Assembly: GCA_030583785.1 (NCBI GenBank)
Contig: CP129475.1
Coordinates: forward strand, 543,559-607,558
Direction of reading: 5' to 3'
Origin: Candidatus Dojkabacteria bacterium
Lineage (GTDB): Bacteria > Patescibacteriota > Dojkabacteria > B142 > OLB20
Length of the DNA: 64,000 nt
Below the pieces are notes generated by a model. The model saw only the letters and a list, made by a program, of their open reading frames with translations, ran no database searches and was not told the DNA's origin. A program made the translations under genes and the position numbers. Below are positions 21,666-41,086 of the stretch, piece after piece; within the stretch, counting starts at the first letter, position 1; the number at the start of each line of letters is the position of its first letter.

Positions 21666-21668
21666 TTG

Positions 21669-22022
21669 TTAATTACCAATTAACTGGATTCCGAAAATTG
21701 CCCCAATTAAACCAACTACTACAGGTGCAACAATGATAATAACAAAACCAATAACAGCATATGTCAATATTTTGTTTGCCTTTGCCTCTTGGTCTGCGTT
21801 ACCGGCAGCCGTGAGCTTGGTAAAACCCCCCAGAATGATCATAGCCAGCAAAGCCAAAGTTGCAGCAGGAAGGATAAACGCACTTAGCGAAGAAACAATG
21901 CTACTAATGTTTCCGAAAGCAGGATTGACAGGGTTTTGAATTGGATTCTGCGCTAAAACTTTTGTCGCTGCCACGAAAAAGATAACTATTGAAAGTACGA
22001 ATGTGCTTAATTGCTTTTTCAT
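21669..22022 (-). CDS. minimal VirB2/TrbC-like pilin (paralog 5, no Cys domain)
   Basis: Signal peptide MKKQLSTFVLSIVIFFVAATKVLA. Helix, AAGNADQEAKANK loop, helix (AVIGFVIIIVAPVVVGLIGAIFG). Size and topology are those of a canonical T-pilin/TrbC subunit. Start moved to the internal Met (22022); the ORF track gives 22043. Confidence 0.6.
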   Translation of the reverse strand: MKKQLSTFVLSIVIFFVAATKVLAQNPIQNPVNPAFGNISSIVSSLSAFILPAATLALLAMIILGGFTKLTAAGNADQEAKANKILTYAVIGFVIIIVAPVVVGLIGAIFGIQLIGN

Positions 22023-22064
22023 ATTCTTAGAATAGCAGAGCAAATAAATTGATTCAAATTACTC

Positions 22065-26217: not shown

Positions 26218-27882
26218 ATGAAAAATGCGCTTAAAAGGTTATCAAGGTACGCCGCAGAGATCTATTTCTTGTTTGTGGCATTAGTCATTATGCTCCCCCT
26301 TTTAAGAGAGGGATACATATTGCTACTGGACATGACCTTTACCCCTAAAATGAACTACAGTTTTCAAAGTCCTTTCGGTTTATATAACGAGGCCGCTAGA
26401 GACGCAGTCCTTAACATTGCATCGCAAATAATAGGTTCGCAGTTACTCGAAAAGCTATTATTGCTCACCTTGTTATTCATGACCGGCTACTTCATGTTTC
26501 AACTTCTTAAACATTTAAAAGTGAATGCAGATGCAGCCCTTGTTGGCGCAACTCTATATTTATGGAATCCCTTTATTTATAGTCGATTACTTGCCGGTCA
26601 CTGGGCTTTTATATTTGGATATGCATTGCTACCAATCTTCCTGATTTTTTTTAACAAATACTTAAGTAGGAAAAGATTCTCGAATACTTATCTTATTTCT
26701 GCTGCGCTCCTTTGGTTTGCGGCCAGCCTAATAAGTATTCATCATCTATTCATATATTTTATTCCATCTGTTGCCATTACCTTTGCCCACATGCTGCAAA
26801 CCAAAAACTGGGAAGGTAAAATCGCAAGATTGGTTTCAATTTGTGCATTTGTGACTCTTTTCTCTTTTAGTTGGTTCTTACCCACAATCCTTTCTGGAGA
26901 AGTTTCTAGAATCGATAATAATAATCTGCAATTCTTTGCCTCCACTCCTGACCTAAAATATGGACTCTCTACAAACTTACTTGGAATGTATGGGTTTTGG
27001 GCAGAGAATACAATTGGCGAAACAATAAAACCCTATCTGTCGATCTGGCCAGTTATTTCCATATCTTTAGTGATTATCTCGGCTGCTTCTTTACTGCTGG
27101 CAAAACAATGCTGTAAAAAAAATCAGTATTTATTCATCGTTGCTCTGGCAGGAACTGGTTTTATTGGATTTGTTCTTGCTCACGGATCATATGGAATAAT
27201 GCAACCTTTTTGGGACTTCTTCTTTGTAAAGATTCCCTTGTTGCAAATGTTTAGAGACTCACAAAAGTTTCTTAGTTTATATGTCTTAGCATTGAGTATT
27301 CTTCTTCCTTTCAGTATAGGCGCCATCGCTGATTCAGTTAAGATATATAAATTGAGTAAAGAGTCGAAGATAAGAGGATTGAGCATTTTATTGGTTTTGT
27401 TAATAATTCTGGTCAATCCTTTTATGGGATTTGCGGCTGCTGGTCAGATGAAAATATCTGATTATCCAGACAGTTGGTATCAACTTGAGGATAAAGTTAT
27501 TAGTGAACAGAGACCCTCTAAGATTCTGATGCTTCCATGGTTAGCCTATGCCAAGTTCGGGTTCAGTGATAAACAAATTGCCAACCCTGGATCAAAATTC
27601 TTTAGTGCCTATGTTATCGCAGAAAGGATTCCTGCCCTTCTAAAGCAACCTACAAACTGCGAGATCGAATTTAAAGAATATTATAGAGGCGAGATTATTA
27701 GTCTCTGCTTAAACAGCAATAGTGCAAACGCTGACTGGATTAACCAGATTAAAAGCAATGGAATTGACTATGTTGTCATCAATAAAATAAAAGGCTTTGA
27801 AGTAAATGATTTTTACAACGACAAAGAACACTTTCAGAAATTATTTACAGACGACTATACAGAAATATACGAGGTGCTTTAG
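26218..27882 (+). CDS. polytopic membrane protein, GT-C-like glycosyltransferase candidate (paralog of N-domain of 32595..36314)
   Basis: About 10+ TM helices. Pattern shared with the larger neighbour: AALVGATLYLWNPFIYSRLLAGHWAFIFGYALLPIF versus AALIAGFVYTLNTYSIVLFAEAGHINILVAYGFVPLAI. The architecture resembles YfhO/arabinosyltransferase-type GT-C enzymes. Confidence 0.4.
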   Translation: MKNALKRLSRYAAEIYFLFVALVIMLPLLREGYILLLDMTFTPKMNYSFQSPFGLYNEAARDAVLNIASQIIGSQLLEKLLLLTLLFMTGYFMFQLLKHLKVNADAALVGATLYLWNPFIYSRLLAGHWAFIFGYALLPIFLIFFNKYLSRKRFSNTYLISAALLWFAASLISIHHLFIYFIPSVAITFAHMLQTKNWEGKIARLVSICAFVTLFSFSWFLPTILSGEVSRIDNNNLQFFASTPDLKYGLSTNLLGMYGFWAENTIGETIKPYLSIWPVISISLVIISAASLLLAKQCCKKNQYLFIVALAGTGFIGFVLAHGSYGIMQPFWDFFFVKIPLLQMFRDSQKFLSLYVLALSILLPFSIGAIADSVKIYKLSKESKIRGLSILLVLLIILVNPFMGFAAAGQMKISDYPDSWYQLEDKVISEQRPSKILMLPWLAYAKFGFSDKQIANPGSKFFSAYVIAERIPALLKQPTNCEIEFKEYYRGEIISLCLNSNSANADWINQIKSNGIDYVVINKIKGFEVNDFYNDKEHFQKLFTDDYTEIYEVL

Positions 27883-28247
27883 AATAGAATAGTATTATTG
27901 CGAAAATTTACTGGAATCACTAGCCACATATTATATAGGTCAGTTACTTGCAGCAGAGATAATCGCTGAAGATGAATCAGCAGACCGACTTAACGGCGAG
28001 ATCCATAGAATAAATCCCCTACACTATGACGCAGCCGCAATTCTTGTGGGTTCCAAAGAAAGAAATCTACCTCTAGAAAAATATTCTATAAGTATCGAAG
28101 GCATAGACTGCAACTTTCGAATAGCGGCTGCGTATTATTTGGCAAAGCATATGCGTGATAAGCGCTGATATTTGTTGTTTAGTGCTGCAATAAGTTATAA
28201 TCAAGCACCTCTGCCCAGGTAGCAATAACACCAAAATTATAATAACC

Positions 28248-29729
28248 ATGATATATGAACCTAGACTAGATACTGCTCATAGGCAGGAGCTGAAAGGAAC
28301 AGGTAACAGGAAATTAGTATTATTGTTACTGGCTGGCACTTTGGTTGTGTCTGCAAGCGGATGCTTTCAAAACGCGGGTCAACCACTCGAGATAACACCT
28401 AGTAACCCAGTTGTTAGAACTTTTACACCTACCCCCACTCCAACAATGGAGGTATTAGCGACTGCAACTCTGCCGCCAACCGCAACTTTACCACCAACTG
28501 AAACAGTGGGAGCAGGTGACCCACCAGAAGACGACCCAGAAGATGACAATAATGACCCTCTACCAACAGCAGGCCCCGATGGAGTAATTCGTATCACAGC
28601 AACACCAAATCCAACAGAGGCTCAGACATTAACTCCAACAACAAGGCCTACTGAAACCGAAACTGCAACAGCACAACCTACTTTGGATAGCGATGCAGTT
28701 CTGTTTGATGCAGATGGAAAAACACTAAATTGGCAGCCGGCTGGATTTATACCAGCATTATCAAACCTTGAAGGTAACCAATATGGATTTCTTAACCCTG
28801 ATGGTACAACTACTATCAGAGAAGATGGGGCAATAATCCTCGAATATTTCTCTAGACTCTTTGCAGGAGAGAATATAAGCCAAAGTGCGATAGACATCTG
28901 GTCTCTGGCAGAGACAGATATTAGTAATATCCCAGCGGATTTCTTGGCAGATCAGCATAACAAGATTCGCGAATTAGTAGCTGAGCAGGTTGGATATTCT
29001 TCCAGAGTGGGAGAAAGCAGAATCGACGAAGATCAATTAGCTGCAACTATGAACTACCTGCACGAAGTTTTTGCCGCAATGGCTTCAACTGGATCGCTTC
29101 CCCAATCCGGAAACAATGCAACAGTCTTTTATGTGCCTGTTCAAGAACTTGTGACTTCATATAACGGCGACATGCTTGATTTATCTGAATATCAAATATT
29201 TCAGACAGGTAGGCAAGAACCACAGAATCCGGCAGAAGCGATGTCGGCTATTAACCAAATTGCAAGAAACCAAAACAGTCGCCAAATGCAAATTGGAGGA
29301 GCTGACGGGATAATAAGACGACTCTCGGCACCCTTCAGAAGATTCTTTACTAACAGTAACAGACCTACGAGTCTTTCTGCAGAAAACTACAACGGTCATG
29401 TATTTGTTGTTAGAATGACTGTTGGTGGAAATTCTTACCGCATTAGCCTTGGTGCAGACTCCATTGTGAATTTGTACACATCCAGCGAAGCAACCAGTAC
29501 ACCTTTTATGCTGGCGACGGGAACAGCAACAATGCCAGCGCCGACATCTACAGATAGCTGGAACGAAACAAGACCAACCGAAACACAACCAACAAGAGAG
29601 GCTACAGCAATTGTGCCACCAACTGACGAACCTCCACCACCAACTGATCTGCCTATTCCACCAACGGATGTTGTGCCACCGACTGACATGCCACCTCAGC
29701 CGACTTTAACAAGTGTACCGAATAATTAA
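28248..29729 (+). CDS. lipoprotein with Pro/Thr-rich repeat linkers (putative glycosylated surface protein)
   Basis: Signal plus lipobox-like SASGC. N-terminal TPTPTPT and TATLPPTATLPPTET repeats. C-terminal PPTDEPPPPTDLPIPPTDVVPPTDMPPQPT repeats. The globular middle part is of unknown function. Confidence 0.5.
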   Translation: MIYEPRLDTAHRQELKGTGNRKLVLLLLAGTLVVSASGCFQNAGQPLEITPSNPVVRTFTPTPTPTMEVLATATLPPTATLPPTETVGAGDPPEDDPEDDNNDPLPTAGPDGVIRITATPNPTEAQTLTPTTRPTETETATAQPTLDSDAVLFDADGKTLNWQPAGFIPALSNLEGNQYGFLNPDGTTTIREDGAIILEYFSRLFAGENISQSAIDIWSLAETDISNIPADFLADQHNKIRELVAEQVGYSSRVGESRIDEDQLAATMNYLHEVFAAMASTGSLPQSGNNATVFYVPVQELVTSYNGDMLDLSEYQIFQTGRQEPQNPAEAMSAINQIARNQNSRQMQIGGADGIIRRLSAPFRRFFTNSNRPTSLSAENYNGHVFVVRMTVGGNSYRISLGADSIVNLYTSSEATSTPFMLATGTATMPAPTSTDSWNETRPTETQPTREATAIVPPTDEPPPPTDLPIPPTDVVPPTDMPPQPTLTSVPNN

Positions 29730-29747
29730 TTTTTTATTTAAATTCGT

Positions 29748-32546
29748 ATGAAAATAAAAAAGACAGTAACAGCAATAGTTATAAGCTGTTTGCTTCTCTC
29801 TTTGTTTCCGATTCAAAAAACAGAAGCCACAGTCGGAGAATGCGTAATTGGGACTGTATGCGCATACAAAGATGTATATGATTTCCAAACCTCTACTTAT
29901 CACCCCGAAATTGCAAACGGCGTTGAACTAGAACAAAACATCTTCAGAATTGGAATCTGGAATACATCAGGAAGTCCAATCCACAATGTCAGGGTTCATG
30001 ATGTTCTTCCTTCTGGTCTAACTTATATACCCACAACCGTTGTCGTTGCTGGTTATACAGGGACATATAATGATCAGGATCTTTTTAACGGAACTGGAAT
30101 AAATTTTGGAACAGTTGCCAATTCCGGATCAATACAACTTAATTTTCTGGTAAGAGTCGACGACTTGCCTGAAGGCAATTACACTTTAACTAACAACGCA
30201 ACAATAACCTGGGACGGAGGATCAATTTCAGATACAGCTTCTGTGTATGTCGAAGCACAAGATCCACCTGTAAACGAAGGAATATTATTGGTGAACGAAA
30301 TTAACCATGCACCAAGAGCCGATTACAGTGCAGGATCTTCATATGCTTTAAAGAATCGAACTGCAGTAAACGCTGATGATCAATGGATTGAAGTCTTTAT
30401 ACGACAGAACGGTCTTGACCTTAGCGATTCACGCTGGGAAATGACAATTACCAACAACGGAGGCAGTACTGACACAAGAAACCTATTAACCATTGGATCA
30501 AGCTATGAATATTTCGGATCAGGATCTGTAACAAATACAGTTAATGGTGCCTATCTTCTTCTTGCTAATCCTTATCTAGAAATCTCAAACGATGCAATAA
30601 TCAGCATTAAATACAACGGAATCACAGTCGATGATATGACCGTTAGTGGTTCAAACACAGGTCTTTTAGATGAAACCATAGGAAGGAACGAAAGCAGCAC
30701 AGACACAAACAGTAACTCAGATTTCAGTAGGAATCACGGAACTCCAGGTAGAGCTAATGAACAAAGAAGCCAAGCACGCTATGAGGCAGAAATCTATATT
30801 GACTCCCAAGCTGGCAACGAAAGAGGTATCGATGTCATTGATGCTGGCGCCAGTAGAGGCATAGCCAAAAAGCTTGAACCGGCATTTGATCTAGCTGGAA
30901 ATATAATGAATGTATCTTCATCTGCCCAGAATGCAGCAGGATACTACAAAGCAATACTTAGACTGAAAGCAGAAAATGCCGATCTTAATAGTTCTGATCA
31001 TTTTGCAGAGTTTAACATCAACTACGATAACGGCACAGGTGGATACCATACAATTGGCTATGCTATCCGCGGTAGAGATATCGTATCTAATGGCGTATAC
31101 CAAAACTTTGAGATCGAATTCCGAAAAGGCCCGTCAACAACAAATTCAGTCTTTGAGCTTAGCTTTATACCATCAGCAGGTACAACAGTAATTGTCGACT
31201 ATATCGAAGTTGCTCCATTTTCTCCCAACAATTCTCTACCCCGAGTATACGAGGCCGAAAATATGCACTTCAAAACAGGCTATAGAGCCGACGATGCTGG
31301 TACAGCAGTTGCTTTTGGACCTAAATCTGAAGCTAATGCAGACTCCTTCATGAGCTTCGGTCCATTTACCGCAAGTCACATTACAGGAATCGGTTCAGGA
31401 CAATTCCTAGCAACATATAGAATGCGCTTTGCCAATATTACAGGATCAGCATCCGATTTGGCAGTCCGCATTGATGTTCATAACAAAGCAACAGGAATCT
31501 ATCGAGAGAGATTCTTAAGAGTGGCAGACTTATCTGGAAGTTATAAAGACTTCGAGATTTCATTCCCGGCAACCGGTCAAGGTTCAATCGAATTTCGAGT
31601 TATTAACCTTGGGGCAGCTGACATCTACTTTGACAAAGTAACAGTAACCTCAACAAGTTCTGCCAGCATCAGTTATGAGGCAGAGAGTGATTTCGAGTAT
31701 CCAATAGCTCCTGTTGCAACACTAATCAATGCAGGGGCTTCTGGAACACAGGAGGTAAAGGCAGATACAGCAATCAACGCTGAAGGATTCTTAATCAGAG
31801 GTCCTCATGCTTTTGACCAAACAGAAACCAGCAAATACTATGAAGCAAGTTTCAGATTAAGAACAGACTCACCTGCAAGTGGAAACAGCCTACCCGCCGC
31901 ATTACTGTTTATCAGAAACATTGATACAGGACAAATTCTTACAAGTCAGATAGTACATGCCAACACGCTGGTTGAAGATTACAGATCATTCAAGCTGGTC
32001 TTCAACTCTCCAATCGAGGGCAGACTATCTTATGAGGTCTACTTTTTGAGGACAACAAATGTGATTGCCGATAATGTGGTCGTAACAGAACTGCCAGGCA
32101 ATCCAAATCCAAGAGTAAGTCAGGCTGAACAGCTTAGAAGATGGAATAATAACGGCTCAATCGTTGAAGACAGCAAGGCTTCAAACAGCATCGGTCACAC
32201 AAGTGGCTATGCGGTGCAAGCTCTAAGCGGAATTAATAACAATCAAGTTGTCTTGTTTAGTGATTCCCAAGAAGTATTCCCTTCGGGAAACTATGAAGCC
32301 AAATTCCATGTTCGCGGAACTCTCTCCGGAGGATCATCACAAGATATTGCCTATCTTGAGGTATGGAACGAGTTCGGACACCTTAACTATTACCCTCTAA
32401 AGGAATCAGAATTAGACACCGAATATGGTGTATTCACAGTTCCTTTCACAAAAGTCTCTAACGGAAGAATCTACTTTAAAGTGTTCTACCGCGGAGGTCT
32501 TTCTAACAGCATGTTAATCGATAAAATCGAAGTGAACATGTTATAA
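29748..32546 (+). CDS. large secreted surface protein: signal peptide, DUF11-type conserved repeat domain, lamin-tail (LTD)-like domain, four ~140-aa internal repeats
   Basis: Signal MKIKKTVTAIVISCLLLSLFPIQKTEA. DUF11-like segment (NVRVHDVLPSGLTYIP...YTLTNNATITWDGG). LTD-like segment (ILLVNEINHAPRAD...DQWIEVF). Repeat units open with RYEAEIYID / VYEAENMHF / SYEAESDFE / SQAEQLRRW. Confidence 0.55.
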   Translation: MKIKKTVTAIVISCLLLSLFPIQKTEATVGECVIGTVCAYKDVYDFQTSTYHPEIANGVELEQNIFRIGIWNTSGSPIHNVRVHDVLPSGLTYIPTTVVVAGYTGTYNDQDLFNGTGINFGTVANSGSIQLNFLVRVDDLPEGNYTLTNNATITWDGGSISDTASVYVEAQDPPVNEGILLVNEINHAPRADYSAGSSYALKNRTAVNADDQWIEVFIRQNGLDLSDSRWEMTITNNGGSTDTRNLLTIGSSYEYFGSGSVTNTVNGAYLLLANPYLEISNDAIISIKYNGITVDDMTVSGSNTGLLDETIGRNESSTDTNSNSDFSRNHGTPGRANEQRSQARYEAEIYIDSQAGNERGIDVIDAGASRGIAKKLEPAFDLAGNIMNVSSSAQNAAGYYKAILRLKAENADLNSSDHFAEFNINYDNGTGGYHTIGYAIRGRDIVSNGVYQNFEIEFRKGPSTTNSVFELSFIPSAGTTVIVDYIEVAPFSPNNSLPRVYEAENMHFKTGYRADDAGTAVAFGPKSEANADSFMSFGPFTASHITGIGSGQFLATYRMRFANITGSASDLAVRIDVHNKATGIYRERFLRVADLSGSYKDFEISFPATGQGSIEFRVINLGAADIYFDKVTVTSTSSASISYEAESDFEYPIAPVATLINAGASGTQEVKADTAINAEGFLIRGPHAFDQTETSKYYEASFRLRTDSPASGNSLPAALLFIRNIDTGQILTSQIVHANTLVEDYRSFKLVFNSPIEGRLSYEVYFLRTTNVIADNVVVTELPGNPNPRVSQAEQLRRWNNNGSIVEDSKASNSIGHTSGYAVQALSGINNNQVVLFSDSQEVFPSGNYEAKFHVRGTLSGGSSQDIAYLEVWNEFGHLNYYPLKESELDTEYGVFTVPFTKVSNGRIYFKVFYRGGLSNSMLIDKIEVNML

Positions 32547-32594
32547 TTATAGGATATTATCCCCTCTATCGCTCTGCGGTAGAGGGGTCCTATA

Positions 32595-35500: not shown

Positions 35501-36314
35501 AATAAATGCCTGGCTAGATAATGAATCTGTAGACGGTCGCTATAGCTTAGCTCTAGAGGGTAATAGGCATAGCGCCTGCTATTCTGTGCCAATAGGACTC
35601 TTAAACAAGGTTGTGCAGAATCATTTCACTTTTAGCTACAAAAGTAATAACAATAGCTATGTGAAGTATTGTCTTCTTAATACAAATACCGGGCAGTGCG
35701 ACTTGCAAGAAGTTCTCAAGCCATCATCAAAATGGACAGAATACAGCTTTATATTTCGTGCCCGCTCAGAGGCAAATTATGAGCTTTATATTTCTACATT
35801 TGCAGAACAAGGTGACGATCATTACTACTTGGCAAAAATTGACAATCTTAGAGTCTATTCAATACCAGTGGATTATAACCATAAGCTCTATTTGTCTGCA
35901 GAAATTGCAGGCAATATTGAAAACTCCCCTATTAATTATCAGCGTCTAGGGCATGCAAGCTATTTATTAGATGTTAAGGAATACAAAGGTCAGGATTTGC
36001 TTCTAAAGTTTTCGCAACAAAAGAACCAAGGCTGGATAGTTTATAAAACCAACGATGCTAGTCTTGAAACGGGATTCTTTTCTCGACTGGGCAGACTGCT
36101 GGGAAATGTCGTAACTTATGATGTGCAAAATTTCAAAGTTGATGGCTTTGCAAATGCTTGGTTGCTTGAAGAGATTGATTCAGATTACATTCTGATTGAA
36201 TATCGACCACAAACTCAAGCAGATTTGTATTTACTTGTATCGCTTAGCTCAATGGTATTGATATTACCATCAATTGTATTGATGAGGGTTGTTAAGAGAG
36301 TTGGGAAAAGATAG
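32595..36314 (+). CDS. very large membrane protein: N-terminal polytopic GT-C-like domain plus ~800-aa extracytoplasmic domain and C-terminal TM anchor
   Basis: About 13 TM helices in the first ~430 aa (see the paralog at 26218). A long soluble region has scattered Cys. The final hydrophobic helix (LYLLVSLSSMVLILPSIVLM) is followed by the basic tail RVVKRVGKR. Confidence 0.4.
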   Translation: MQSNLIRSIKSSVFSSTAVLAVIFLGVLSFVFVKEWINSLPQFGGDWHYVFQEHIQEENRFPQLWEHSENLGSSQAGRIALGLLDLIQARIADATGADFAQTEVIIWFLPFVMSSFLGIFLLSKKLFKNNKAALIAGFVYTLNTYSIVLFAEAGHINILVAYGFVPLAINSFISLIGKPNFWNAFLFTLLQSVVFIFDIRIGFIGLIPLVILLFSKFFFIRKSLSTKLLLSLFFGGFLFIIINLFWLIPIITTPQEQILASGQADSVWVERLSYQELSHALTLSHPFFSQEGISYFSANPVSPFAIILSVFIIFGVIKAVKKDKKTVFVLLGILLIGSFFVKGANEPFGSVYIWMFENIPGFTMFREPQKFYVLSALPYSLLLGYGVVRFASFLSELNLRKQKQLKLISYSLFLLIYFMILLPVFSGKIEGNLKARELPEYSHRIEEIIANNKDFYRVLWIPQVTSSAFRSDSNPRLDFNVAISELVGSDNYNSASIYEYVTSNQFQYILSSMSVKYIVFANDPEVNRWYSSGVKEAENYLINSGDYTVVQDETYTILENKRFDSLFTRLNRPLITNSEIADLNLPENTFNVGRSYIFPEGTDLTGDIYGKTDKRLYLTVNNSIVSVDEGSISTLVKLEENDIFNINNTASPYVKVNFQRQSDGSYIIHAVGNKENILIGDQEIDLNNVQFKSTTRTYIDPNLEYFVRGEAGGISFMPEEIVAGTTKGFVKINTNQPVLEVFAENSQQYVAESFREDSVLEIGDCNNYDNTSLEDNQILYRLSNDSPDGSKSFLLSANNHIACFNKSFFPSPEDQIALLSLNYKQISGSLPEICIFDHEKDSCVYRTELAQASAVEWKRLELPFLLDKETTRYSVYLYTNALESPSRNLYDNLSVKGFRSIDRLSLDKIPANQPADSIFVAGREQTIKYNSELVQRIPIYNSSFDMPIDHRLFVKDCNNKDKSELEANGINAWLDNESVDGRYSLALEGNRHSACYSVPIGLLNKVVQNHFTFSYKSNNNSYVKYCLLNTNTGQCDLQEVLKPSSKWTEYSFIFRARSEANYELYISTFAEQGDDHYYLAKIDNLRVYSIPVDYNHKLYLSAEIAGNIENSPINYQRLGHASYLLDVKEYKGQDLLLKFSQQKNQGWIVYKTNDASLETGFFSRLGRLLGNVVTYDVQNFKVDGFANAWLLEEIDSDYILIEYRPQTQADLYLLVSLSSMVLILPSIVLMRVVKRVGKR

Positions 36315-36317
36315 ACA

Positions 36318-37163
36318 TTAGCGAAAAGTCTGATCTGAGTTTTCTGAAGCGATTTTACCGAAGACATAACCAAATGCAGCACTTGTGTAACGAACTATTT
36401 GGTAGATAATAAACCCGATCGATAAAATCGGATGCTTGATGAAACGAGGTAAGTTACGAACATATGCCGGTTTTATTGGGACTTTTTGCCAAAAGGTTAG
36501 CTTTCTTGGTGTGCCAGCACTACTTTTATTTGCCAAAGTAGACCCGTAAAAGAAGTGTTTCTTGGCAATATCGGCAAGTCTTTTTGGCTCTCCTAAATGC
36601 GTTTCTTCGCTGTTAATAAACGACATTTTAAAACCAGCTTCTTGCAGCCTATTGAAGATATCATAATCTTCTCCTGCGACCATATTCTCGTTAAAGCCGT
36701 TAACGCTCATGAATGCCTTTCTTGTTAGAAATCTAGGGGAAATGCCTGAATGCGCAAATTTGAGCATGTCTCGCTCAAATTTGCGCACCTTGGCCCAAAA
36801 ACTTACGCTACCATCTGAAGTATTATGTACTGCGACCATGTCAAAGCCCTGCTTAATCTGTTCAATCGCTTCTTCAACAATGCGTTCATCGAGAACAAAG
36901 TCATCGTCTACAAAATAAAGGCAATCACCAAAACTGTGTTTGGCTCCATAATTTTTTTGTTTAGATCTGCCCCTATCACATTTTAAAAACTTCGCCTCAA
37001 AACTTTTTACAATAGATTGGGTGCCGTCAGTTGAGCCACCATCAACTATTATGATCTCATCTACTTTCTGAGTCTGTTTAGAGATAGACTGCAAAGTATC
37101 GGCAAGATATCTTTCGGAATTCAAAGTTGGAATAACGATGCTTACTGTTAACTTCTTATCCAT
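36318..37163 (-). CDS. family 2 glycosyltransferase
   Basis: VSIVIPTLNSERYL...IIVDGGSTDGT...YFVDDDF, the GT-A DxD pattern. Confidence 0.7.
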   Translation of the reverse strand: MDKKLTVSIVIPTLNSERYLADTLQSISKQTQKVDEIIIVDGGSTDGTQSIVKSFEAKFLKCDRGRSKQKNYGAKHSFGDCLYFVDDDFVLDERIVEEAIEQIKQGFDMVAVHNTSDGSVSFWAKVRKFERDMLKFAHSGISPRFLTRKAFMSVNGFNENMVAGEDYDIFNRLQEAGFKMSFINSEETHLGEPKRLADIAKKHFFYGSTLANKSSAGTPRKLTFWQKVPIKPAYVRNLPRFIKHPILSIGFIIYQIVRYTSAAFGYVFGKIASENSDQTFR

Positions 37164-38257
37164 TTCTGCAACTGCTTATTAACGAATTTATAGCTATTAT
37201 CCCAGGTCAGCTTATTTGCAAATAATTTTGCGGAACTGCTCATGTTATCTCTTAATTTAAGATCTTCAAATATCCTGCTTATTGCTAGAGCTAGCTTTTC
37301 TGGACTTTCATCTATTGTATGTAAACCTGTTTGGTAGTGAATAACAGCATCAACACTACCTGCGACCGGATAGACAACGGCCGGAACACCAAGTGCTGCA
37401 GATTCTAATACGGCTAATCCCCAACCCTCTTTTATTGAGGTACTTAGTGTAACCCAACTCTCTGCAACAATAATGTGTTTCTCTTGCTCACTTAAGTAAC
37501 CGAGAAATTGAACATTGTCTTTAAGATGATTTTTATTCACGAATTTCTGGATTCTATGGAAGTATTTCCCTTCTGTCTTTCCAAGTACTCGATATTTAAT
37601 AAATGGATATTTCTTTCTTAGAATTGATATTGCCCTAAGCTGATCTTCTACCCGTTTCAGTGGTCTTAATCCTCCAAAGTAAACAATGCTGGGATATTTT
37701 GTTTTTTGCAAATTAGAAGGGATTATCGGCTGATCTGTTCCTTCGGGAACAATTGCGATATTTTTTTCAGAAATTCCTAGCTTAATTAACTCTTCAGCAG
37801 TAGATTTACTCACTGTCAAGATTCGTTCGTTTCTGTATATGAATCTAAGTACCAATTGCTCCATAACTAATCCAATTATCGATAGCGGAAATGGCAACAT
37901 GTAAAGCCAAATCTTGCCTGCGACTTCATGAATAAGCGTCACCCTCTTTGCTTTGTCAACATAAAGTGGCGTAAAAAACTGAAGAGCATGTATCTCATCC
38001 ACTACAATATCTATGCTTGATTTGTTTTTCAAATAGTAACGCAGTGCATGCCAGATAACCGACAATCTATTGCCCTTTCTAATATAGTTGATCCCGTCTT
38101 CTATACTTGCTTCTCGAAACTCCTTTGGTTTCGACGAAATCCAGGTTACAACATGACCTGCCTTCACAAAACGACTCATGATTTCACCGCTAAACCTCTC
38201 TGCGCCACCGGCCCTCACATTATATGGATCGTATCTGTTGAGAATAAGTATGTGCAT
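37148..38257 (-). CDS. family 1/4 (GT-B) glycosyltransferase
   Basis: C-terminal EGWGLAVLESAALGVPAVV matches the GT4 E(x7)E motif region. N-terminal MHILILN...AGGAERF start. Confidence 0.7.
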   Translation of the reverse strand: MHILILNRYDPYNVRAGGAERFSGEIMSRFVKAGHVVTWISSKPKEFREASIEDGINYIRKGNRLSVIWHALRYYLKNKSSIDIVVDEIHALQFFTPLYVDKAKRVTLIHEVAGKIWLYMLPFPLSIIGLVMEQLVLRFIYRNERILTVSKSTAEELIKLGISEKNIAIVPEGTDQPIIPSNLQKTKYPSIVYFGGLRPLKRVEDQLRAISILRKKYPFIKYRVLGKTEGKYFHRIQKFVNKNHLKDNVQFLGYLSEQEKHIIVAESWVTLSTSIKEGWGLAVLESAALGVPAVVYPVAGSVDAVIHYQTGLHTIDESPEKLALAISRIFEDLKLRDNMSSSAKLFANKLTWDNSYKFVNKQLQKWIRS

Positions 38258-39069
38258 TAGTTTATCAACCTAAGGGAAGCAACCTCGCGTTTAATAGAAT
38301 CTTTGAAGTAAATCTGTGATTTTCCGTAATAGTCAAGAATCCTGAGCCTATAAAAGACTGCAGTCGTATCCCAGAATGAACGGAGTCCTTCAAAAAAAGT
38401 AATGGTGCTGTTCTTTTTGTCCTCTTGAAGCAAAATTGGAACTTCTGCAATAGAAGTAAATCCAAGTTTGCTCGCAACTGCAAGAAATTCAATTTCAAAG
38501 GCAAATCTCTTCACGAGAAGTCTGGGTAATACCGCAGCAACCACTTCTTTCGTATAGAATTTGATCCCCACTTGAGTATCAGACACTTTGACTCCTGTAA
38601 GGAGTCCTGCATATTTATTGTAAAATCTGCTAAATAATTTTCTAGAAGGCGAATACGAAACCTCTGATTGCTTGTGCCATTTAGAAGGCACAACTAAATC
38701 GAACTGACCACTTCTAATCGTATTTATAATTGTCGTCAGATTACCGGGCAGAATATCTGCTCCAGCATCAACATAGCCTATGTAGTCTCCTTTAGCCCTC
38801 ATCATACCGAAACGCACCGCAAATCCTTTTCCTCTATTTTGTTCATAATGATAAATTCGCACTATGTCTTCTGGAAAAGAAGATAAAGCTTTAACAGTTG
38901 CCGGGGCATATCCATCTACTACAACAATTATTTCGTAACTTATGTTCAGGCTGTTTAATTCAGCTACTCTGCTGTTAATCGTGTCCAGAATAAAAGAATC
39001 TGCCTTGTAAGCAGGGATAACAATCGAAAATAATGGCCTATTTTGTATATTGGTCTGCTTTTTGTTCAC
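38257..39069 (-). CDS. family 2 glycosyltransferase (polyprenyl-phosphate sugar transferase-like)
   Basis: FSIVIPAYKA...IIVVVDGYAP...GKGFAVRFGMMRAKGDYIGYVDAGADI. Confidence 0.7.
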   Translation of the reverse strand: MNKKQTNIQNRPLFSIVIPAYKADSFILDTINSRVAELNSLNISYEIIVVVDGYAPATVKALSSFPEDIVRIYHYEQNRGKGFAVRFGMMRAKGDYIGYVDAGADILPGNLTTIINTIRSGQFDLVVPSKWHKQSEVSYSPSRKLFSRFYNKYAGLLTGVKVSDTQVGIKFYTKEVVAAVLPRLLVKRFAFEIEFLAVASKLGFTSIAEVPILLQEDKKNSTITFFEGLRSFWDTTAVFYRLRILDYYGKSQIYFKDSIKREVASLRLIN

Positions 39070-40261
39070 GCCTAAAAGTAAGTAAGAAATATACAGAAAT
39101 AAGAAATAGAAAAGACATTACTACCATCTGGATATTAAGCACAGCGGCAATTGAATTTCCAAAATAATGTATTAATCCGATCTGCATTAACAAAGATAGG
39201 AACAAAAAAGGATTAATTTTATTATAATCCCTTGAGATTAGATAAAGCACGATATTATTGGCAAGAACAAATATTGTCATGATAACCGTCTGCATGGCTA
39301 AATATGATGCTGCTTCGATGAATTCTAAACCAAAAACACTTTGAACAAGAAAGGTTCCAAGAAAAGCAAAGGCGATCGTTGCAAAAAGTCCTATTCCTGA
39401 ACTGATTATAAGACTTTGCTTAAGATCCTTTAACGAACCGTTGCCGGAAGCGCTTATAGGGAAGAGAGCTATGGAGATAGATCCTGCCAAGAAAAATACC
39501 AACTTACCGAAGGTAATAACAGCACCATAAATTCCTGCGTCATATGCCGCAAGTGATGATCTTGCCATTACCCCATCGACGATGAACATAAGATTGATCA
39601 CAATAAATCCTATTGAAACTGCAGTTACAGATTTAATACTAAAGACTTCTAGAACATCCACTTCCTTTTCACTAACTGTTAAGCGAGTAGATAATAATTT
39701 GGCGACAATTAATGTTATTAAGGAACCTACAGCCAGTCCAAATAATATCCCGTTAATACCAAGTCCTAAGGCAATAGCAGTTACAGCAAATATCAACTTT
39801 AATACTGATTCAATTATCTGTGTAATAGCTGTATCAGCAAATGACATTGATCCACGCAGAATGCCTCGATACATTGCCAGAAACAGAGAACTTAAAGCTA
39901 GCAAGGCCAACATAGCGAAAGGTGTGATATCTGAAATATTCAAATAACTTCTGAGAAATATCGTGCCAAGTAGAATAAAGCTAATTGCTAGTAGTATCTG
40001 AGCAATTAATAATATCTTAAGAAGATGCTGTTCTACCTGCTTGCTTGAAAGTTTATGTGTTGCCACTACTTTTGTGACAACATTAAAAACAACTGTCTGA
40101 GCAATACTGATAACAAACGAAAGCGACAGAAGCGATACAAGAACACCAAAGTCTTCTGGGCCAATGAACCTGCCTAAGGTATAGAACAAGAAATTCAAGC
40201 CCGCAGTCAGCACTGCCGCAAATGTAAATATCAGCGTTCCTTGTATAAGTTTGTTTGACAT
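39038..40261 (-). CDS. Wzx-type oligosaccharide/polysaccharide flippase (MOP superfamily)
   Basis: 12-14 predicted TM helices, with size and topology typical of a polysaccharide biosynthesis flippase. Start moved to the Met of MSNKLIQG (40261) to avoid overlapping the upstream gene; the ORF track gives 40360. Confidence 0.55.
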   Translation of the reverse strand: MSNKLIQGTLIFTFAAVLTAGLNFLFYTLGRFIGPEDFGVLVSLLSLSFVISIAQTVVFNVVTKVVATHKLSSKQVEQHLLKILLIAQILLAISFILLGTIFLRSYLNISDITPFAMLALLALSSLFLAMYRGILRGSMSFADTAITQIIESVLKLIFAVTAIALGLGINGILFGLAVGSLITLIVAKLLSTRLTVSEKEVDVLEVFSIKSVTAVSIGFIVINLMFIVDGVMARSSLAAYDAGIYGAVITFGKLVFFLAGSISIALFPISASGNGSLKDLKQSLIISSGIGLFATIAFAFLGTFLVQSVFGLEFIEAASYLAMQTVIMTIFVLANNIVLYLISRDYNKINPFLFLSLLMQIGLIHYFGNSIAAVLNIQMVVMSFLFLISVYFLLTFRREQKADQYTK

Positions 40262-40284
40262 TGCTCCAGCGCGACTACAATTTA

Positions 40285-40941
40285 CTAGCTCTGGGATTTT
40301 CTTCGTGATGAGAATGCGAATGCTATTAACAGAACCAAGAGCAATAATAATAAGCAACACAATAACAGTACCCCGGCATTAAGGGAACCTAGAATGCTTG
40401 TGCTTTGTTGTCCAACTGCTAAATAAGGGAAATTATTTGCTTCTGCTGAATAGAAGTAATAAATTGAGCTTTCTGTTTTTTGTGCAGTGTTTTCTCTTAC
40501 CCATGCATTGTCTGAATTATTGTGGGTGAACAAAGAAATATCGTTCTGATTCAGAGATTTTTCGTTTAACCAACTCTTTCGAACTTTAAGATCAAGGCTT
40601 GTTTTTTTAATATCGTTTTCGTTTATTCCATTAAACTCAAATTCGCAATACTCAAAGGCATTGTCTATCTGTGCAGAGTCCTTTTTTGGGTTATCTGAAA
40701 GTTTTCTTAAGATAATTTCACCTTTTATATTGGTCTTTGCCTCTATTGTAACCTTATCGATTGATTCACAACCTGTAGGATAAAAAGAAATTCTATCTGA
40801 GGCAGCAATATCGATTCCATAAACTTCACCATTATCTCTATAAATTGGTGTTACTTGATTTGTATCATATTGGGCAAATGCAAGCGAAGGACTTAACAAT
40901 ATGGACAGTGAAAGAATTATTGAAACAAAATACTTGGTCAT
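40285..40941 (-). CDS. secreted protein with C-terminal hydrophobic anchor and basic tail (sorting-signal-like)
   Basis: Signal peptide MTKYFVSIILSLSILLSPSLAFA. C-terminal LLLCCLLLLLLVLLIAFAF followed by SSRRKSQS. Confidence 0.4.
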   Translation of the reverse strand: MTKYFVSIILSLSILLSPSLAFAQYDTNQVTPIYRDNGEVYGIDIAASDRISFYPTGCESIDKVTIEAKTNIKGEIILRKLSDNPKKDSAQIDNAFEYCEFEFNGINENDIKKTSLDLKVRKSWLNEKSLNQNDISLFTHNNSDNAWVRENTAQKTESSIYYFYSAEANNFPYLAVGQQSTSILGSLNAGVLLLCCLLLLLLVLLIAFAFSSRRKSQS

Positions 40942-41044
40942 GTTCTGGTTAATAAAATTAAAACAGGATAGGTTATTATATCAAATATATAGCCTATATC
41001 ATAACGCTAATGCGTTGAATCCTACTGCCAGATAATACGAAAAA

Positions 41045-41072
41045 GGCCCCGCCGGGTTTCGCCGGCGGGGCC
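41045..41072 (-). terminator. rho-independent terminator downstream of groEL
   Basis: Perfect 11-bp GC stem, ggccccgccgg / ccggcggggcc, with a 6-nt loop. An A-run on the plus strand (41038-41044) gives a T-tract after the hairpin on the minus strand. Confidence 0.7.
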
Positions 41073-41086
41073 CTTTTACTAAATAA

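What the first reader, a model, noticed from the sequence alone, without database searches (positions are those of the whole stretch)
26218..40941. About 15-kb cell-surface glycosylation locus with two paralogous GT-C-like membrane proteins and candidate glycoprotein substrates
Contiguous genes encode a 554-aa polytopic GT-C-like protein, a Pro/Thr-repeat lipoprotein, a 932-aa surface protein, and a 1239-aa protein whose N-terminal polytopic domain is a paralog of the 554-aa protein. GT2, GT4 and GT2 genes, a Wzx flippase and a secreted protein with a C-terminal anchor follow.

The PPTD/TPTPT repeats of the lipoprotein, and the long external domains of the others, are plausible O-glycosylation targets. 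The two GT-C paralogs could be oligosaccharyl- or glycosyl-transferases acting on different acceptors.
Basis: inference. Interest (0 to 1): 0.55.

Follow-up and report, generated by a model that had tools for sequence, protein, structure and literature searches.

The report
Dojkabacteria surface glycosylation gene cluster
This is a conserved ten-gene block in an uncultured, ultra-small bacterium (Candidatus Dojkabacteria) that pairs two membrane sugar-transferases related to the mycobacterial cell-wall enzyme AftD with sugar-donor genes and three exported surface proteins; it very probably decorates the cell surface with sugars, but what it decorates is still open.

Summary
All nine ORFs sit at the stated coordinates, and I found a tenth small conserved ORF.

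**What the genes are**
- The 554-aa and 1239-aa proteins are true paralogs (hhalign 99.8%, E 9e-30).
- AlphaFold models of both (pLDDT 83) match only GT-C glycosyltransferases. AftD is the top hit for each.
- The large protein also carries CBM-like beta-sandwich modules and a single C-terminal TM.
- The small protein is a sub-threshold relative of MmpA (Rv0226c). It keeps an invariant loop-1 Asp and an R-[DE]-x-[QH]-K motif across 160 relatives.
- It does not belong to YfhO, PMT, ArnT or STT3.
- One GT2 resembles the polyprenyl-phosphate sugar synthases GtrB, DPMS and ArnC. A MOP flippase, a GT4 and a second GT2 complete the cluster.
- No priming transferase lies in the 64-kb window.

**Conservation.** The block recurs, in the same order, in at least three other Dojkabacteria, one with different flanks. 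The Pro/Thr-rich protein keeps only its position and composition.

**Best reading.** This is a GtrB/flippase/GT-C type extracytoplasmic glycosylation module. Whether the acceptor is protein or glycan is unresolved.

**Verdict.** It is a new variant of a known kind, of moderate interest.

The parts
26218..27882 (+). Small GT-C paralog (554 aa). It has about 11 TM helices plus a C-terminal extracytoplasmic alpha/beta domain. It is MmpA-like and belongs to the AftD clan.
   Evidence: NCBIfam NF053599 MmpA: 8.8e-50, 169.8 bits, below the cut-off of 210. No Pfam hit at E<=0.1. AF2 model: pLDDT 82.9, pTM 0.88. Foldseek PDB: AftD 6w98 first (2.9e-7, TMq 0.59), followed only by GT-C enzymes. D38, W261, R346 and K350 are invariant in 156-160 of 160 relatives.
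27914..28168 (+). Conserved small ORF (about 85 aa, no TM). It has no ATG/GTG/TTG start before the GTG at 28046.
   Evidence: tblastn of the 92-aa gene at the same position in WS6 OLB20: 46% identity over 83 aa, E 2.4e-15. It is absent from locus L003.
28248..29729 (+). Membrane-anchored Pro/Thr-rich protein (493 aa). It has a lipobox-like VSASGC, P/T tracts at both ends and a non-conserved acidic core.
   Evidence: One N-terminal hydrophobic segment at 23-41. P+T is 35-45% at residues 41-160 and 46-55% at 441-493. No family hit. The genes at the same position in OLB20 (627 aa, TM anchor) and L003 (353 aa, lipobox LLAAC) share this architecture but no BLAST-detectable similarity.
29748..32546 (+). 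Exported 932-aa protein. It has a signal peptide, a DUF11 domain, an LTD-like 'NEINHAP...DEWIEV' region and four homologous repeats of about 145 aa (341-495, 496-640, 641-790, 791-932).
   Evidence: PF01345 4.4e-7 and TIGR01451. Orthologs are 48, 40 and 55% identical over the full length. Repeats: five of the six hhalign pairs give 86-97.5% probability, E 5e-7 to 2e-11; R1-R2 is weak at 17%. The LTD-like label is my reading of the motif and was not tested.
32595..36314 (+). Large GT-C paralog (1239 aa). It has an N-terminal GT-C domain (1 to about 600), beta-sandwich CBM-like modules (about 613-1190, with 755-915 and 935-1100 duplicated) and a single C-terminal TM (1211-1229).
   Evidence: Sub-threshold Pfam hits: DUF6541 3e-6 and GT-C_AftD 1.3e-3. 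UniRef names the identical protein 'DUF3367 domain'. AF2 model of residues 1-1200: pLDDT 83.3. Foldseek: AftD 6w98 at 7.8e-15, then CBM22 tandem, Vip3 and GH101 CBM-type domains. Module duplication: hhalign 99.3%, E 2e-19. Relatives hit CBM_4_9.
36318..37163 (-). GT2a (281 aa), a soluble GT-A. It is the most variable enzyme of the block.
   Evidence: PF00535 9e-26. Best PDB relatives are chondroitin synthase and generic GT-A enzymes. Only 30% identity to the OLB20 counterpart and 22% to the L003 counterpart.
37148..38257 (-). GT4 (369 aa), a cytoplasmic GT-B enzyme.
   Evidence: PF00534 2e-31 and PF13439 6e-13. 45-53% identity in Dojkabacteria orthologs. A homolog at about 29% identity sits directly upstream of the MmpA-like GT-C in the unrelated loci L007, L012 and L013.
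38257..39069 (-). GT2b (270 aa), a candidate polyprenyl-phosphate sugar synthase.
   Evidence: PF00535 2e-19. Best solved relatives: GtrB sll0501 (7e-9, residues 14-181), DPMS 5mlz (14-213) and ArnC. NCBIfam gives weak hits to ArnC, PgfS, AglJ and PpgS, but equally strong hits to other GT2 models such as PgaC. 57% identity to the OLB20 ortholog. No TM helices.
39038..40261 (-). MOP/PST-family (Wzx-like) flippase. The probable true start is the ATG at 40261; the mechanical ORF start is the GTG at 40360.
   Evidence: PF01943 2.4e-9 and PF13440. About 12-14 hydrophobic segments. Orthologs align from residue 34 onward.
40285..40941 (-). Exported 218-aa protein with a PGF-pre-PGF domain, a C-terminal TM (191-209, conserved 'LLCC') and a basic tail. 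It is the most conserved gene of the block.
   Evidence: TIGR04213 6.3e-11, 42.5 bits, above the cut-off of 28. 68% identity to the OLB20 ortholog and 34% to L003. Signal-like segment at 5-23.
40975..41077 (-). Right boundary of the cluster. A strong bidirectional terminator hairpin follows groEL, and a promoter-like site lies ahead of the minus-strand operon.
   Evidence: Hairpin at 41040-41077: 16 pairs, 11 G-C, followed by a T run. Promoter-like site at 41002-40975: 10 of 12 matches with an extended TG. These are consensus matches only.

Best explanation
This locus is a self-contained envelope-glycosylation module of Candidatus Dojkabacteria (candidate division WS6, CPR). It is built on the 'lipid-linked donor + flippase + GT-C' principle.

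**Shown**
- Two convergent operons form one block that is inherited together.
- The two polytopic proteins are paralogs with the GT-C fold of the AftD/MmpA clan.
- They keep a strictly conserved Asp in the first extracytoplasmic loop and an R-[DE]-x-[QH]-K motif.
- The large paralog carries CBM-like beta-sandwich modules.
- GT2b is most similar to the polyprenyl-phosphate sugar synthases GtrB, DPMS and ArnC.
- A MOP-family flippase, a GT4 and a second GT2 are present.

**Inferred**
- GT2b loads a sugar from a nucleotide sugar onto polyprenyl phosphate at the cytoplasmic face.
- GT4 and GT2a make either a second lipid-linked donor or a short lipid-linked glycan or primer.
- The MOP protein flips the lipid-linked sugar.
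- The two GT-C enzymes transfer sugars outside the membrane.

**Favoured acceptor model.** I assign the division of labour as follows. The small, CBM-less paralog adds the first sugars to Thr/Ser in the Pro/Thr-rich tracts of the co-encoded anchored protein, and perhaps to the other two exported proteins. The large paralog holds the nascent glycan with its CBM-like modules and extends or branches it, as AftD does on arabinan. The product would be a glycosylated surface coat. This step is weakly supported.
For: **Fold**
- AF2 models have pLDDT 82.9 and 83.3.
- AftD is the first Foldseek hit for both models.
- For the small model, ranks 1-25 are exclusively GT-C enzymes: STT3, AglB, PglB, DPY19, AftA, AftB, ArnT, Pmt4 and GPI-MT.

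**Family links**
- 11 of 29 relatives hit PF11847 GT-C_AftD, best E 2.5e-11.
- NF053599 MmpA hits the small protein at 9e-50.

**Catalytic-type residues**
- D38 is present in 156 of 160 relatives. W261, R346 and K350 are present in 160 of 160. Position 347 is always D or E.
- The same residues occur in the large family: D46, R366, E367 and K370.
- They are numerically close to the AftD residues D41, W272 and K361, which are essential or fully conserved (bioRxiv 10.1101/2019.12.22.885152).

**Donor side**
- GT2b's best solved homologs are GtrB, DPMS and ArnC.
- A MOP flippase is present.
- No WecA/WbaP-type priming enzyme lies anywhere in the 64-kb window. This favours monophosphate-linked sugar donors.

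**Functional unit**
- Order and orientation are conserved in OLB20, L003, L005 and L008.
- L003 has unrelated flanks.
- Gene spacing is tight: 18-48 bp in the window, and the genes abut in L003.
- A terminator and a promoter-like site mark the right boundary.

**Protein acceptor**
- The gene in position 2 keeps its anchor and its P/T tracts at both ends in three genomes, although sequence similarity has been lost.
- Streptococcal GT-A plus GT-C systems glycosylate Ser/Thr-rich disordered regions, including those of a lipoprotein. The Pgf cluster co-encodes its adhesin substrates and two GT-C proteins (PMC12041528).

**Glycan handling**
- CBM-like modules occur in the large paralog.
- CBMs in AftD, EmbC and GT136 bind the acceptor glycan.
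Against: - No biochemical data exist for any member outside Actinobacteria.
- The only phenotype for the small protein's closest named relative, MmpA, concerns acetylation and export of a trehalose lipid, and its authors proposed a scaffold role.
- Neither paralog reaches the curated cut-off of any family: 169.8 < 210, 26.3 < 29 and 17.2 < 26.
- Profile searches did not find AftD in the PDB by sequence.
- I equated residues with AftD by position only. I could not read the model coordinates, so I did not superpose structures.
- GT2b lacks the TM helices of GtrB and ArnC, and its similarity to them is modest (about 39 bits).
- The assignment of small paralog as initiator and large as extender is pure inference.
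- P/T tracts may simply be wall-spanning linkers.
- The fold of the four repeats in the 932-aa protein is unknown.
Confidence: 0.5

Rival explanations
1. The locus builds a free cell-envelope glycopolymer or lipoglycan (LM/LAM-like or a secondary wall polymer), and no protein is glycosylated. GT4 (with GT2a) builds a glycolipid or lipid-linked primer in the cytoplasm and the MOP protein flips it. The two GT-C enzymes then extend and branch it outside using polyprenyl-phosphate sugars made by GT2b. The three exported proteins would be accessory factors that bind, anchor or regulate the polymer. The 932-aa multi-repeat protein could be a glycan-binding surface protein, and the lipoprotein could act like LpqW.
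For: - AftD, the best structural match of both paralogs, acts on arabinogalactan and LAM.
- The large paralog has CBM-like modules, which bind glycan acceptors in AftD, EmbC and GT136.
- The GT4 + GT2 + flippase + GT-C gene set mirrors the logic of PIM/LM/LAM synthesis. That comparison rests on my knowledge of the pathway, not on a test here.
- A GT4 lies directly upstream of the MmpA-like GT-C in the distant loci L007, L012 and L013. L007 also carries methyltransferases, an acyltransferase and CBM_4_9 proteins, which is a polysaccharide-type context.
Against: - It does not explain why a Pro/Thr-rich anchored protein is kept between the GT-C genes while only its composition is conserved.
- It does not explain why three exported proteins are embedded in the operons.
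- The cluster has no polymerase, ligase, LCP-type or chain-length genes.
- No glycolipid anchor enzyme has been identified.
Confidence: 0.3
2. The small paralog, and perhaps both, is not a transferase. Instead it is a membrane scaffold or lipid-delivery factor, as proposed for MmpA, helping to export or modify a glycolipid made by GT4 and GT2.
For: - NCBIfam's closest model is 'MmpA family trehalose lipid delivery protein', at 9e-50.
- The MmpA paper suggests a membrane-anchor or complex-organiser role and found no catalytic domain.
Against: - The hit is below the equivalog cut-off.
- Proteins that pass the MmpA cut-off (P0011, P0012 and P0013, at 372-428 bits) keep the same invariant Asp and R-D-x-Q-K motif. 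AftD has essential residues at similar sequence positions.
- 160 of 160 relatives conserve these polar residues in extracytoplasmic loops. That pattern is what one expects of an active site.
- Dojkabacteria are not known to make mycolates or trehalose lipids (my own knowledge).
Confidence: 0.1
3. This is a classical Wzx/Wzy-type or oligosaccharyltransferase pathway. A repeat unit is built on undecaprenyl diphosphate, flipped by Wzx, and transferred en bloc to protein or polymerised, with the GT-C-like proteins acting as OTase or polymerase.
For: - A Wzx-like MOP protein and three cytoplasmic GTs are present.
- STT3, AglB and PglB are among the structural neighbours of the small paralog.
Against: - No phosphoglycosyltransferase (WecA/MraY-type or WbaP-type) lies in the 64-kb window.
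- There is no Wzy or Wzz.
- No Pfam STT3 hit appears at E<=0.1.
- AftD-type enzymes transfer single sugars from monophosphate donors.
- Caveat: a priming enzyme could be encoded elsewhere in the 1.17-Mb genome, which I could not read.
Confidence: 0.08

Closest known systems
AftD (Rv0236c / M. abscessus AftD, PDB 6W98), the GT-C arabinofuranosyltransferase of mycobacterial arabinogalactan and LAM
   Same: - AftD is the best structural match for both paralogs.
- It shares the N-terminal 11-TM GT-C core plus a soluble extracytoplasmic domain.
- Both keep a loop-1 Asp and a later Lys at similar sequence positions.
- The large paralog shares the overall architecture of GT-C core, several CBM-like beta-sandwiches and a C-terminal membrane anchor.
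   Different: - Sequence identity is only about 10-12%.
- The Pfam GT-C_AftD hit is below threshold for the large paralog and absent for the small one.
- The large paralog has one C-terminal TM, whereas AftD has a five-TM bundle that binds acyl carrier protein.
- The host is a CPR bacterium, which has no arabinogalactan.
- No DPA-pathway genes (DprE1/E2, UbiA-type synthase) lie in the window, so the donor sugar is unknown.
MmpA (NCgl2761 / Rv0226c; NCBIfam NF053599)
   Same: - It is the closest named sequence family of the 554-aa protein: 9e-50, covering residues 17-467.
- It has the same size class and topology: about 11 TM helices plus one extracytoplasmic domain.
- Proteins that pass the MmpA cut-off share the invariant D, W and R-D-x-Q-K residues.
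   Different: - The score of 169.8 is below the cut-off of 210.
- MmpA's known phenotype concerns acetyl-trehalose monocorynomycolate, a lipid not expected in Dojkabacteria.
- The gene neighbourhoods differ: TmaT and MtrP around MmpA, versus GT2, GT4, a flippase and surface proteins here.
Three-component extracytoplasmic glycosylation systems (GtrA/GtrB/GtrC; ArnC/ArnEF/ArnT; CsbB/GtcA/YfhO; the GT136 pentofuranose system)
   Same: These systems have a GT2 lipid-phosphate sugar synthase, a flippase and a GT-C transferase. In GT136 the flippase is of the MATE family rather than GtrA-type, and the GT-C carries a CBM (PMC11127046).
   Different: - This locus has two GT-C paralogs of a different GT-C family.
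- It adds a GT4 and a second GT2.
- Three exported proteins are embedded in it.
- GT2b lacks TM helices.
Streptococcal Pgf and GtrB-PgtC2 protein O-glycosylation (PgfS, PgfM1, PgfE, PgfM2 with Cnm, CnaB and CbpA)
   Same: These clusters contain a GT-A enzyme, two GT-C membrane proteins and Thr-rich surface proteins that are the substrates. They glycosylate extracytoplasmic Ser/Thr-rich disordered regions, including those of a lipoprotein (PMC12041528).
   Different: - PgfM1, PgfM2 and PgtC2 belong to the YfhO family. The proteins here have no YfhO hit and are AftD/MmpA-clan.
- There is no epimerase here.
- Glycosylation of the proteins here is untested.

Membership tests
GT-C fold superfamily | Polytopic membrane core (7-13 TM) with an extracytoplasmic domain, and overall fold similarity to solved GT-C enzymes | tested here: met
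   AF2 models have pLDDT 82.9 and 83.3. The Foldseek PDB top 25 for the small model are all GT-C enzymes, with E down to 2.9e-7. The large model hits AftD at 7.8e-15. The models and the hydropathy scan show about 11 TM helices.
GT-C fold superfamily | Conserved acidic residue in the first extracytoplasmic loop after TM1 | tested here: met
   D38 lies in 'LDMTF' just after TM1 (helix 12-28), and the N-terminus is rich in K/R. D38 is present in 156 of 160 relatives. D46 in 'GGDWHY' is invariant in the large family.
AftD family (Pfam PF11847 GT-C_AftD / DUF3367) | Sequence match above the Pfam gathering score | tested here: not met
   Large paralog: 17.2 bits against a cut-off of 26. Small paralog: no hit at E<=0.1. 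However, 11 of 29 relatives do hit the model, best 2.5e-11, and UniRef labels the identical 1239-aa protein DUF3367.
AftD family | Periplasmic carbohydrate-binding modules after the GT-C domain | tested here: met
   This holds for the large paralog only. Beta-sandwich modules span about 613-1190 and match CBM22 tandem, Vip3 and GH101 CBM-type domains. Two modules are duplicated. Two relatives hit CBM_4_9.
AftD family | Sixteen TM helices, with a C-terminal five-TM bundle that binds acyl carrier protein | tested here: not met
   Only one C-terminal hydrophobic segment (1211-1229) follows the soluble region. The small paralog has no C-terminal TM at all.
AftD family | Essential active-site residues K39, D41, E251, K361 and D474 | tested here: inconclusive
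   D38/D46 and K350/K370 lie at similar sequence positions and are invariant. W261 lies near the position of W272. The D474 counterpart may be N456, which is N in 109 and D in 17 of 160 relatives. I identified no clear E251 counterpart. No structural superposition was possible.
AftD family | Uses decaprenyl-phospho-arabinose (requires DprE1/E2 and the UbiA-type DPPR synthase) | tested here: not met
   None of these genes lies in the 64-kb window. The rest of the genome was not available.
MmpA family (NCBIfam NF053599, equivalog) | Score at or above the curated cut-off of 210 bits | tested here: not met
   Small paralog: 169.8 bits. Large paralog: 39.4 bits. Controls P0011, P0012 and P0013 score 372-428 bits.
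YfhO, PMT, ArnT (PMT_2) and STT3 families | Pfam profile match | tested here: not met
   Neither paralog hits any of these models at E<=0.1. They appear only as more distant structural neighbours.
Three-component (lipid-P-sugar synthase / flippase / GT-C) glycosylation system | GT2 polyprenyl-phosphate sugar synthase encoded with the GT-C | tested here: inconclusive
   GT2b's best solved homologs are GtrB (7e-9), DPMS and ArnC. Scores are low, the protein has no TM helices, and the activity is untested.
Three-component (lipid-P-sugar synthase / flippase / GT-C) glycosylation system | Dedicated flippase encoded with the GT-C | tested here: met
   A MOP/PST-family protein (PF01943, 2.4e-9) is conserved in the block in OLB20 and L003. 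It is of the MOP type, not the GtrA/SMR type.
Wzx/Wzy-dependent or OTase pathway | Initiating phosphoglycosyltransferase and Wzy polymerase or OTase in the locus | tested here: not met
   No PF00953, PF02397 or Wzy-type hit occurs in the cluster or elsewhere in the window.
Pgf-type protein O-glycosylation | Glycan demonstrated on co-encoded Ser/Thr-rich proteins | not testable with these tools
   Only the composition and position of the P/T-rich protein could be examined.

The most novel reading that the evidence does not exclude
Dojkabacteria, and perhaps other CPR bacteria, use AftD/MmpA-clan GT-C enzymes to O-glycosylate a dedicated set of co-encoded surface proteins: a mucin-like Pro/Thr-rich anchor protein, a DUF11 multi-repeat protein and a bacterial protein with an archaeal-type PGF-pre-PGF domain. 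Together these would build a glycoprotein coat. That would be the first protein-directed activity for this GT-C clan. By extension it would mean the whole MmpA-like family (about 9,600 clusters at 50% identity), including essential Rv0226c, consists of active glycosyltransferases rather than scaffolds.
Probability: 0.22. Interest if true: 0.68.

Novelty: new variant of a known kind. Interest (0 to 1): 0.45.

Why it matters
- **CPR envelope biology.** CPR bacteria are uncultured episymbionts, and their envelope chemistry is almost unknown. A compact, conserved operon pair that couples donor synthesis, flipping, two GT-C transferases and three surface proteins can be moved as one piece into a tractable host. 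That would show what coats these cells.
- **The MmpA question.** The analysis links a very large uncharacterised family (9,619 clusters at 50% identity with E<=1e-3) to AftD through fold and invariant loop residues. Proteins that pass the MmpA cut-off keep these residues. This makes it directly testable whether essential MmpA/Rv0226c of M. tuberculosis is a catalyst rather than a scaffold, for example by a D-to-A substitution in the loop-1 Asp.

Tried and rejected
- **Sequence searches against the PDB.** I searched with both proteins, with profiles A1, A2 and A3, and with relative P0009. None found a GT-C. Only the fold search made the link.
- **Profile search for the 932-aa family.** Profile A5 against the PDB gave no hit. 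Pfam scans of its orthologs found only DUF11.
- **BLAST self-comparison.** It showed no repeats in the 932-aa or 1239-aa proteins. hhalign on ortholog alignments did show them.
- **Shared modules.** I tested whether the 932-aa repeats are related to the CBM-like modules of the large GT-C. They are not detectably related.
- **Third homolog search.** Searching with profile A2 added one protein only.
- **Collection scans.** The genome and metagenome scans returned few orthologous loci: 3 and 6.
- **Rejected: transporter or non-GT family.** The 'transp_MmpA' name is only a label for an AftD-homologous family.
- **Rejected: YfhO, PMT, ArnT or STT3 membership.** There are no profile hits.
- **Rejected: chance adjacency.** Synteny is conserved with different flanks.
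- **Literature.** Searches for Dojkabacteria glycosyltransferases, DUF3367, GT-C in Patescibacteria and PGF-pre-PGF found nothing describing this cluster.

Full report
**Observation**

Pfam confirms four of them:
- GT2 at 36318-37163 (PF00535, 9e-26)
- GT4 at 37148-38257 (PF00534, 2e-31)
- GT2 at 38257-39069 (2e-19)
- a Polysacc_synt/MOP flippase at 39038-40360 (2e-9)

The 218-aa protein has a signal-like N-terminus, a C-terminal TM and a basic tail. It also carries a PGF-pre-PGF domain (TIGR04213, 6e-11, above cut-off).

The 493-aa protein has one N-terminal hydrophobic segment ending in VSASGC. Its Pro/Thr tracts reach 35-55% P+T at residues 41-160 and 441-493.

The two polytopic proteins are paralogs. 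BLASTP gives 24% identity over 387 aa, E 7e-12. Profile-profile comparison gives 99.8%, E 9e-30, aligning small residues 60-554 with large residues 83-579.

**Source organism**

The 1239-aa protein is 100% identical to QY330_02695 of a Candidatus Dojkabacteria MAG, on a 1.17-Mb contig. The best homolog of the 554-aa protein (49%) is from candidate division WS6 OLB20. The window also carries T4SS_pilin-type genes, ClpB, GroES/EL and FtsA.

**Is it one unit?**

The same genes in the same order and orientation occur in four other places:
- WS6 OLB20 (L001/L006)
- a JGI metagenome contig (L003)
- a third Dojkabacteria MAG (L005)
- partially, L008

Identity to OLB20 is 49% for the small GT-C, 47% for the 932-aa protein, 33% for the large GT-C, 30% for GT2a, 53% for GT4, 57% for GT2b, 48% for the flippase and 68% for the PGF-pre-PGF protein.

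In L003 the flanks are entirely different. Upstream lie Ldh_2, UbiA and a CoA-disulfide-reductase-like gene; downstream lie a sigma factor and a FecR-like gene. The block therefore travels as a module.

On the right, a strong hairpin terminator (41040-41077) ends the groESL operon. A promoter-like site (41002-40975) precedes the minus-strand operon (consensus matches only).

Between the small GT-C and the lipoprotein gene I found a further conserved ORF at about 27914-28168. It is 46% identical over 83 aa to the 92-aa OLB20 gene at the same place (E 2e-15). It has no canonical start codon before 28046.

**The polytopic proteins**

*Sequence profiles*
- Pfam gives nothing for the small protein. 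For the large one it gives only sub-threshold DUF6541 (3e-6) and GT-C_AftD (1.3e-3).
- No YfhO, PMT, ArnT or STT3 hit appears at E<=0.1.
- NCBIfam's nearest model is NF053599, 'MmpA family trehalose lipid delivery protein'. The small protein scores 9e-50 and 169.8 bits, below the 210 cut-off. The large one scores 3e-10.
- MmpA (NCgl2761/Rv0226c) is itself reported to be homologous to the N-terminal 668 residues of AftD. It has only a genetic phenotype, not a defined activity (PMC8698533).
- Among 29 relatives of both paralogs, 11 hit GT-C_AftD (best 2.5e-11) and 2 hit CBM_4_9.

*Structure*
- The AlphaFold model of the small protein is confident: pLDDT 82.9, pTM 0.88.
- Foldseek against the PDB returns AftD 6W98 first (E 2.9e-7, TMq 0.59). 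It is followed exclusively by GT-C enzymes through rank 25: STT3, AglB, PglB, DPY19, AftA, AftB, ArnT, Pmt4 and GPI-MT-I.
- The model of residues 1-1200 of the large protein has pLDDT 83.3. It hits full-length AftD at 7.8e-15. It then hits CBM22 tandems and the CBM-type domains of Vip3 toxins, GH101 enzymes and a Bacteroides surface glycan-binding protein.
- Two of its beta-sandwich modules (755-915 and 935-1100) are duplicates (hhalign 99.3%).
- Unlike AftD, it ends in a single TM helix (1211-1229), not a five-helix ACP-binding bundle.

*Catalytic-type residues*
- A profile of the small family finds 9,619 cluster representatives at E<=1e-3 and 1,914 at E<=1e-30 among 1.84 billion proteins.
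- In an alignment of 160 of them, D38 (in 'LDM', just after TM1) is present in 156. W261, R346, K350, G127, G259 and P440 are present in all 160. Residue 347 is always D or E.
- The large family has the same features: GGD46WHY and FR366E367PQK370F.
- In AftD, K39, D41, E251, K361 and D474 are essential, and W272 is 100% conserved (bioRxiv 10.1101/2019.12.22.885152).
- D38, W261 and K350 sit at similar sequence positions to D41, W272 and K361. I could not superpose coordinates, so this equivalence is an inference.
- P0011, P0012 and P0013 pass the MmpA cut-off (372-428 bits). P0011 and P0012, which are in alignment A2, keep the same residues. This argues that the whole family, MmpA included, is catalytic.

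**The cytoplasmic enzymes**
- GT2b's best solved homologs are the polyprenyl-phosphate glycosyltransferases GtrB (sll0501, 7e-9), DPMS and ArnC.
- GT2a resembles generic GT-A enzymes such as chondroitin synthase. It is the least conserved enzyme of the block (30% and 22% identity), as one might expect of a specificity determinant.
- No WecA/MraY-type or WbaP-type priming enzyme, Wzy or chain-length regulator occurs anywhere in the window.
- A GT4 about 29% identical to the one here sits directly upstream of an MmpA-like GT-C in three unrelated loci (L007 from an Actinomycetota MAG, L012 and L013). So the GT4/GT-C pairing extends beyond Dojkabacteria.

**The exported proteins**
- *932-aa protein.* It is conserved along its whole length: 48, 40 and 55% identity. 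It consists of a signal peptide, a DUF11 domain, a region whose 'NEINHAP...DEWIEV' motif recalls lamin-tail domains (my reading, untested) and four homologous repeats of about 145 aa. Five of the six repeat pairs give 86-97.5% hhalign probability, and R1-R2 is weak at 17%. The fold of the repeats is unknown.
- *Position-2 protein.* It is not detectably conserved in sequence. In all three genomes, however, it is membrane-anchored and has P/T-rich tracts at both ends. That is the pattern expected when composition rather than sequence is under selection.

**Mechanism**

The gene set fits the widespread scheme in which three steps follow one another. A GT2 charges polyprenyl phosphate with a sugar, a flippase exports it, and a GT-C enzyme transfers it outside the membrane (PMC11127046).

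I commit to that scheme at confidence about 0.5, with GT2b as synthase, the MOP protein as flippase and both paralogs as transferases.

The acceptor is the open point.
- *For a glycan acceptor:* the AftD resemblance; the CBM-like modules, which bind the acceptor polysaccharide in AftD, EmbC and GT136; and the extra GT4 and GT2a.
- *For a protein acceptor:* the embedded exported proteins and the compositionally conserved P/T tracts. There is also a close precedent. Streptococcal GtrB-PgtC2 and PgfS-PgfM1/M2 systems glycosylate extracytoplasmic Ser/Thr-rich disordered regions, including those of the lipoprotein PrsA, and the Pgf cluster co-encodes its adhesin substrates (PMC12041528).

My favoured synthesis is inference only. 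The CBM-less small paralog initiates on Thr/Ser, and the CBM-bearing large paralog extends the glycan.

The rivals are:
- a free glycopolymer or lipoglycan pathway (0.3)
- an MmpA-like non-catalytic role (0.1)
- a Wzx/Wzy or OTase pathway (0.08)

**Comparison and novelty**

The locus works like a three-component or Pgf-type system. It is not a member of the GtrC, YfhO, PMT, ArnT or STT3 families. Its GT-C proteins fall below the curated thresholds of both AftD (Pfam) and MmpA (NCBIfam), although they clearly belong to that clan.

I found no paper describing this cluster or any AftD-clan system in CPR bacteria.

I rate it a new variant of a known kind. A glycosylation locus is ordinary in itself. 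What adds value is the CPR context, the paired AftD-clan enzymes with embedded putative substrates, and the implication for the essential mycobacterial protein MmpA.

Noticed in passing
window 27914-28168 (+): A conserved ORF of about 85 aa lies between the small GT-C gene and the lipoprotein gene. It is 46% identical over 83 aa to a 92-aa gene at the same position in WS6 OLB20. In this window it has no ATG/GTG/TTG start before 28046, so it may use a non-canonical start. It has no family hit and is absent from locus L003.
   Followed up: partly
window 40285-40941 (-): A bacterial (CPR) protein matches the PGF-pre-PGF domain (TIGR04213, 6e-11, above cut-off). To my knowledge that domain is otherwise described from archaeal surface proteins that precede the PGF-CTERM archaeosortase signal. 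Here it is followed by a TM with a conserved 'LLCC' and a basic tail, but no PGF motif. It is the most conserved gene of the block (68% identity to OLB20). No exosortase or archaeosortase was seen in the window.
   Followed up: partly
proteins P0011, P0012, P0013 (alignment A2): Proteins that pass the NCBIfam MmpA equivalog cut-off keep the invariant loop-1 Asp, the Trp and the R-D-x-Q-K motif shared with the AftD clan (checked for P0011 and P0012). One of the three passing proteins, P0013, is from Janibacter melonis. As far as I know that genus has no mycolic acids. This suggests that MmpA-family proteins are enzymes, and that the 'trehalose lipid delivery' name is too narrow.
   Followed up: partly
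L007 8352-11902; L012 7867-10477; L013 4672-7291: In three loci outside Dojkabacteria (one from an Actinomycetota MAG), a GT4 about 29% identical to the window's GT4 lies immediately upstream of an MmpA-like GT-C. This points to a conserved GT4/GT-C gene pair. L007 also has methyltransferases, a hexapeptide acyltransferase and two CBM_4_9 proteins of about 1040 aa.
   Followed up: partly
window 18793-23207 (-): A run of genes encodes small membrane proteins with T4SS_pilin (PF18895) matches just below the Pfam gathering score, directly upstream of clpB. The same arrangement occurs in WS6 OLB20.
   Followed up: no
window 39038-40360 (-): The mechanical ORF of the flippase starts at a GTG that overlaps the upstream gene by 76 nt. 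Orthologs align only from residue 34, so the true start is probably the ATG at 40261 (407 aa).
   Followed up: yes
window 14574-16124 (+), 43208-45220 (-), 954-3296 (-), 9837-11057 (+): Several long ORFs (516, 670, 780 and 406 aa) have no Pfam hit. The 670-aa ORF also has no NCBIfam hit and lies next to the ftsA-like gene.
   Followed up: no
L003 585-1484 (-): In the JGI locus a UbiA-family prenyltransferase gene lies about 3 kb upstream of the conserved block. The mycobacterial decaprenyl-phosphoribose synthase belongs to this family. The gene is outside the conserved block and has no counterpart in the window, so the link is probably coincidental.
   Followed up: no
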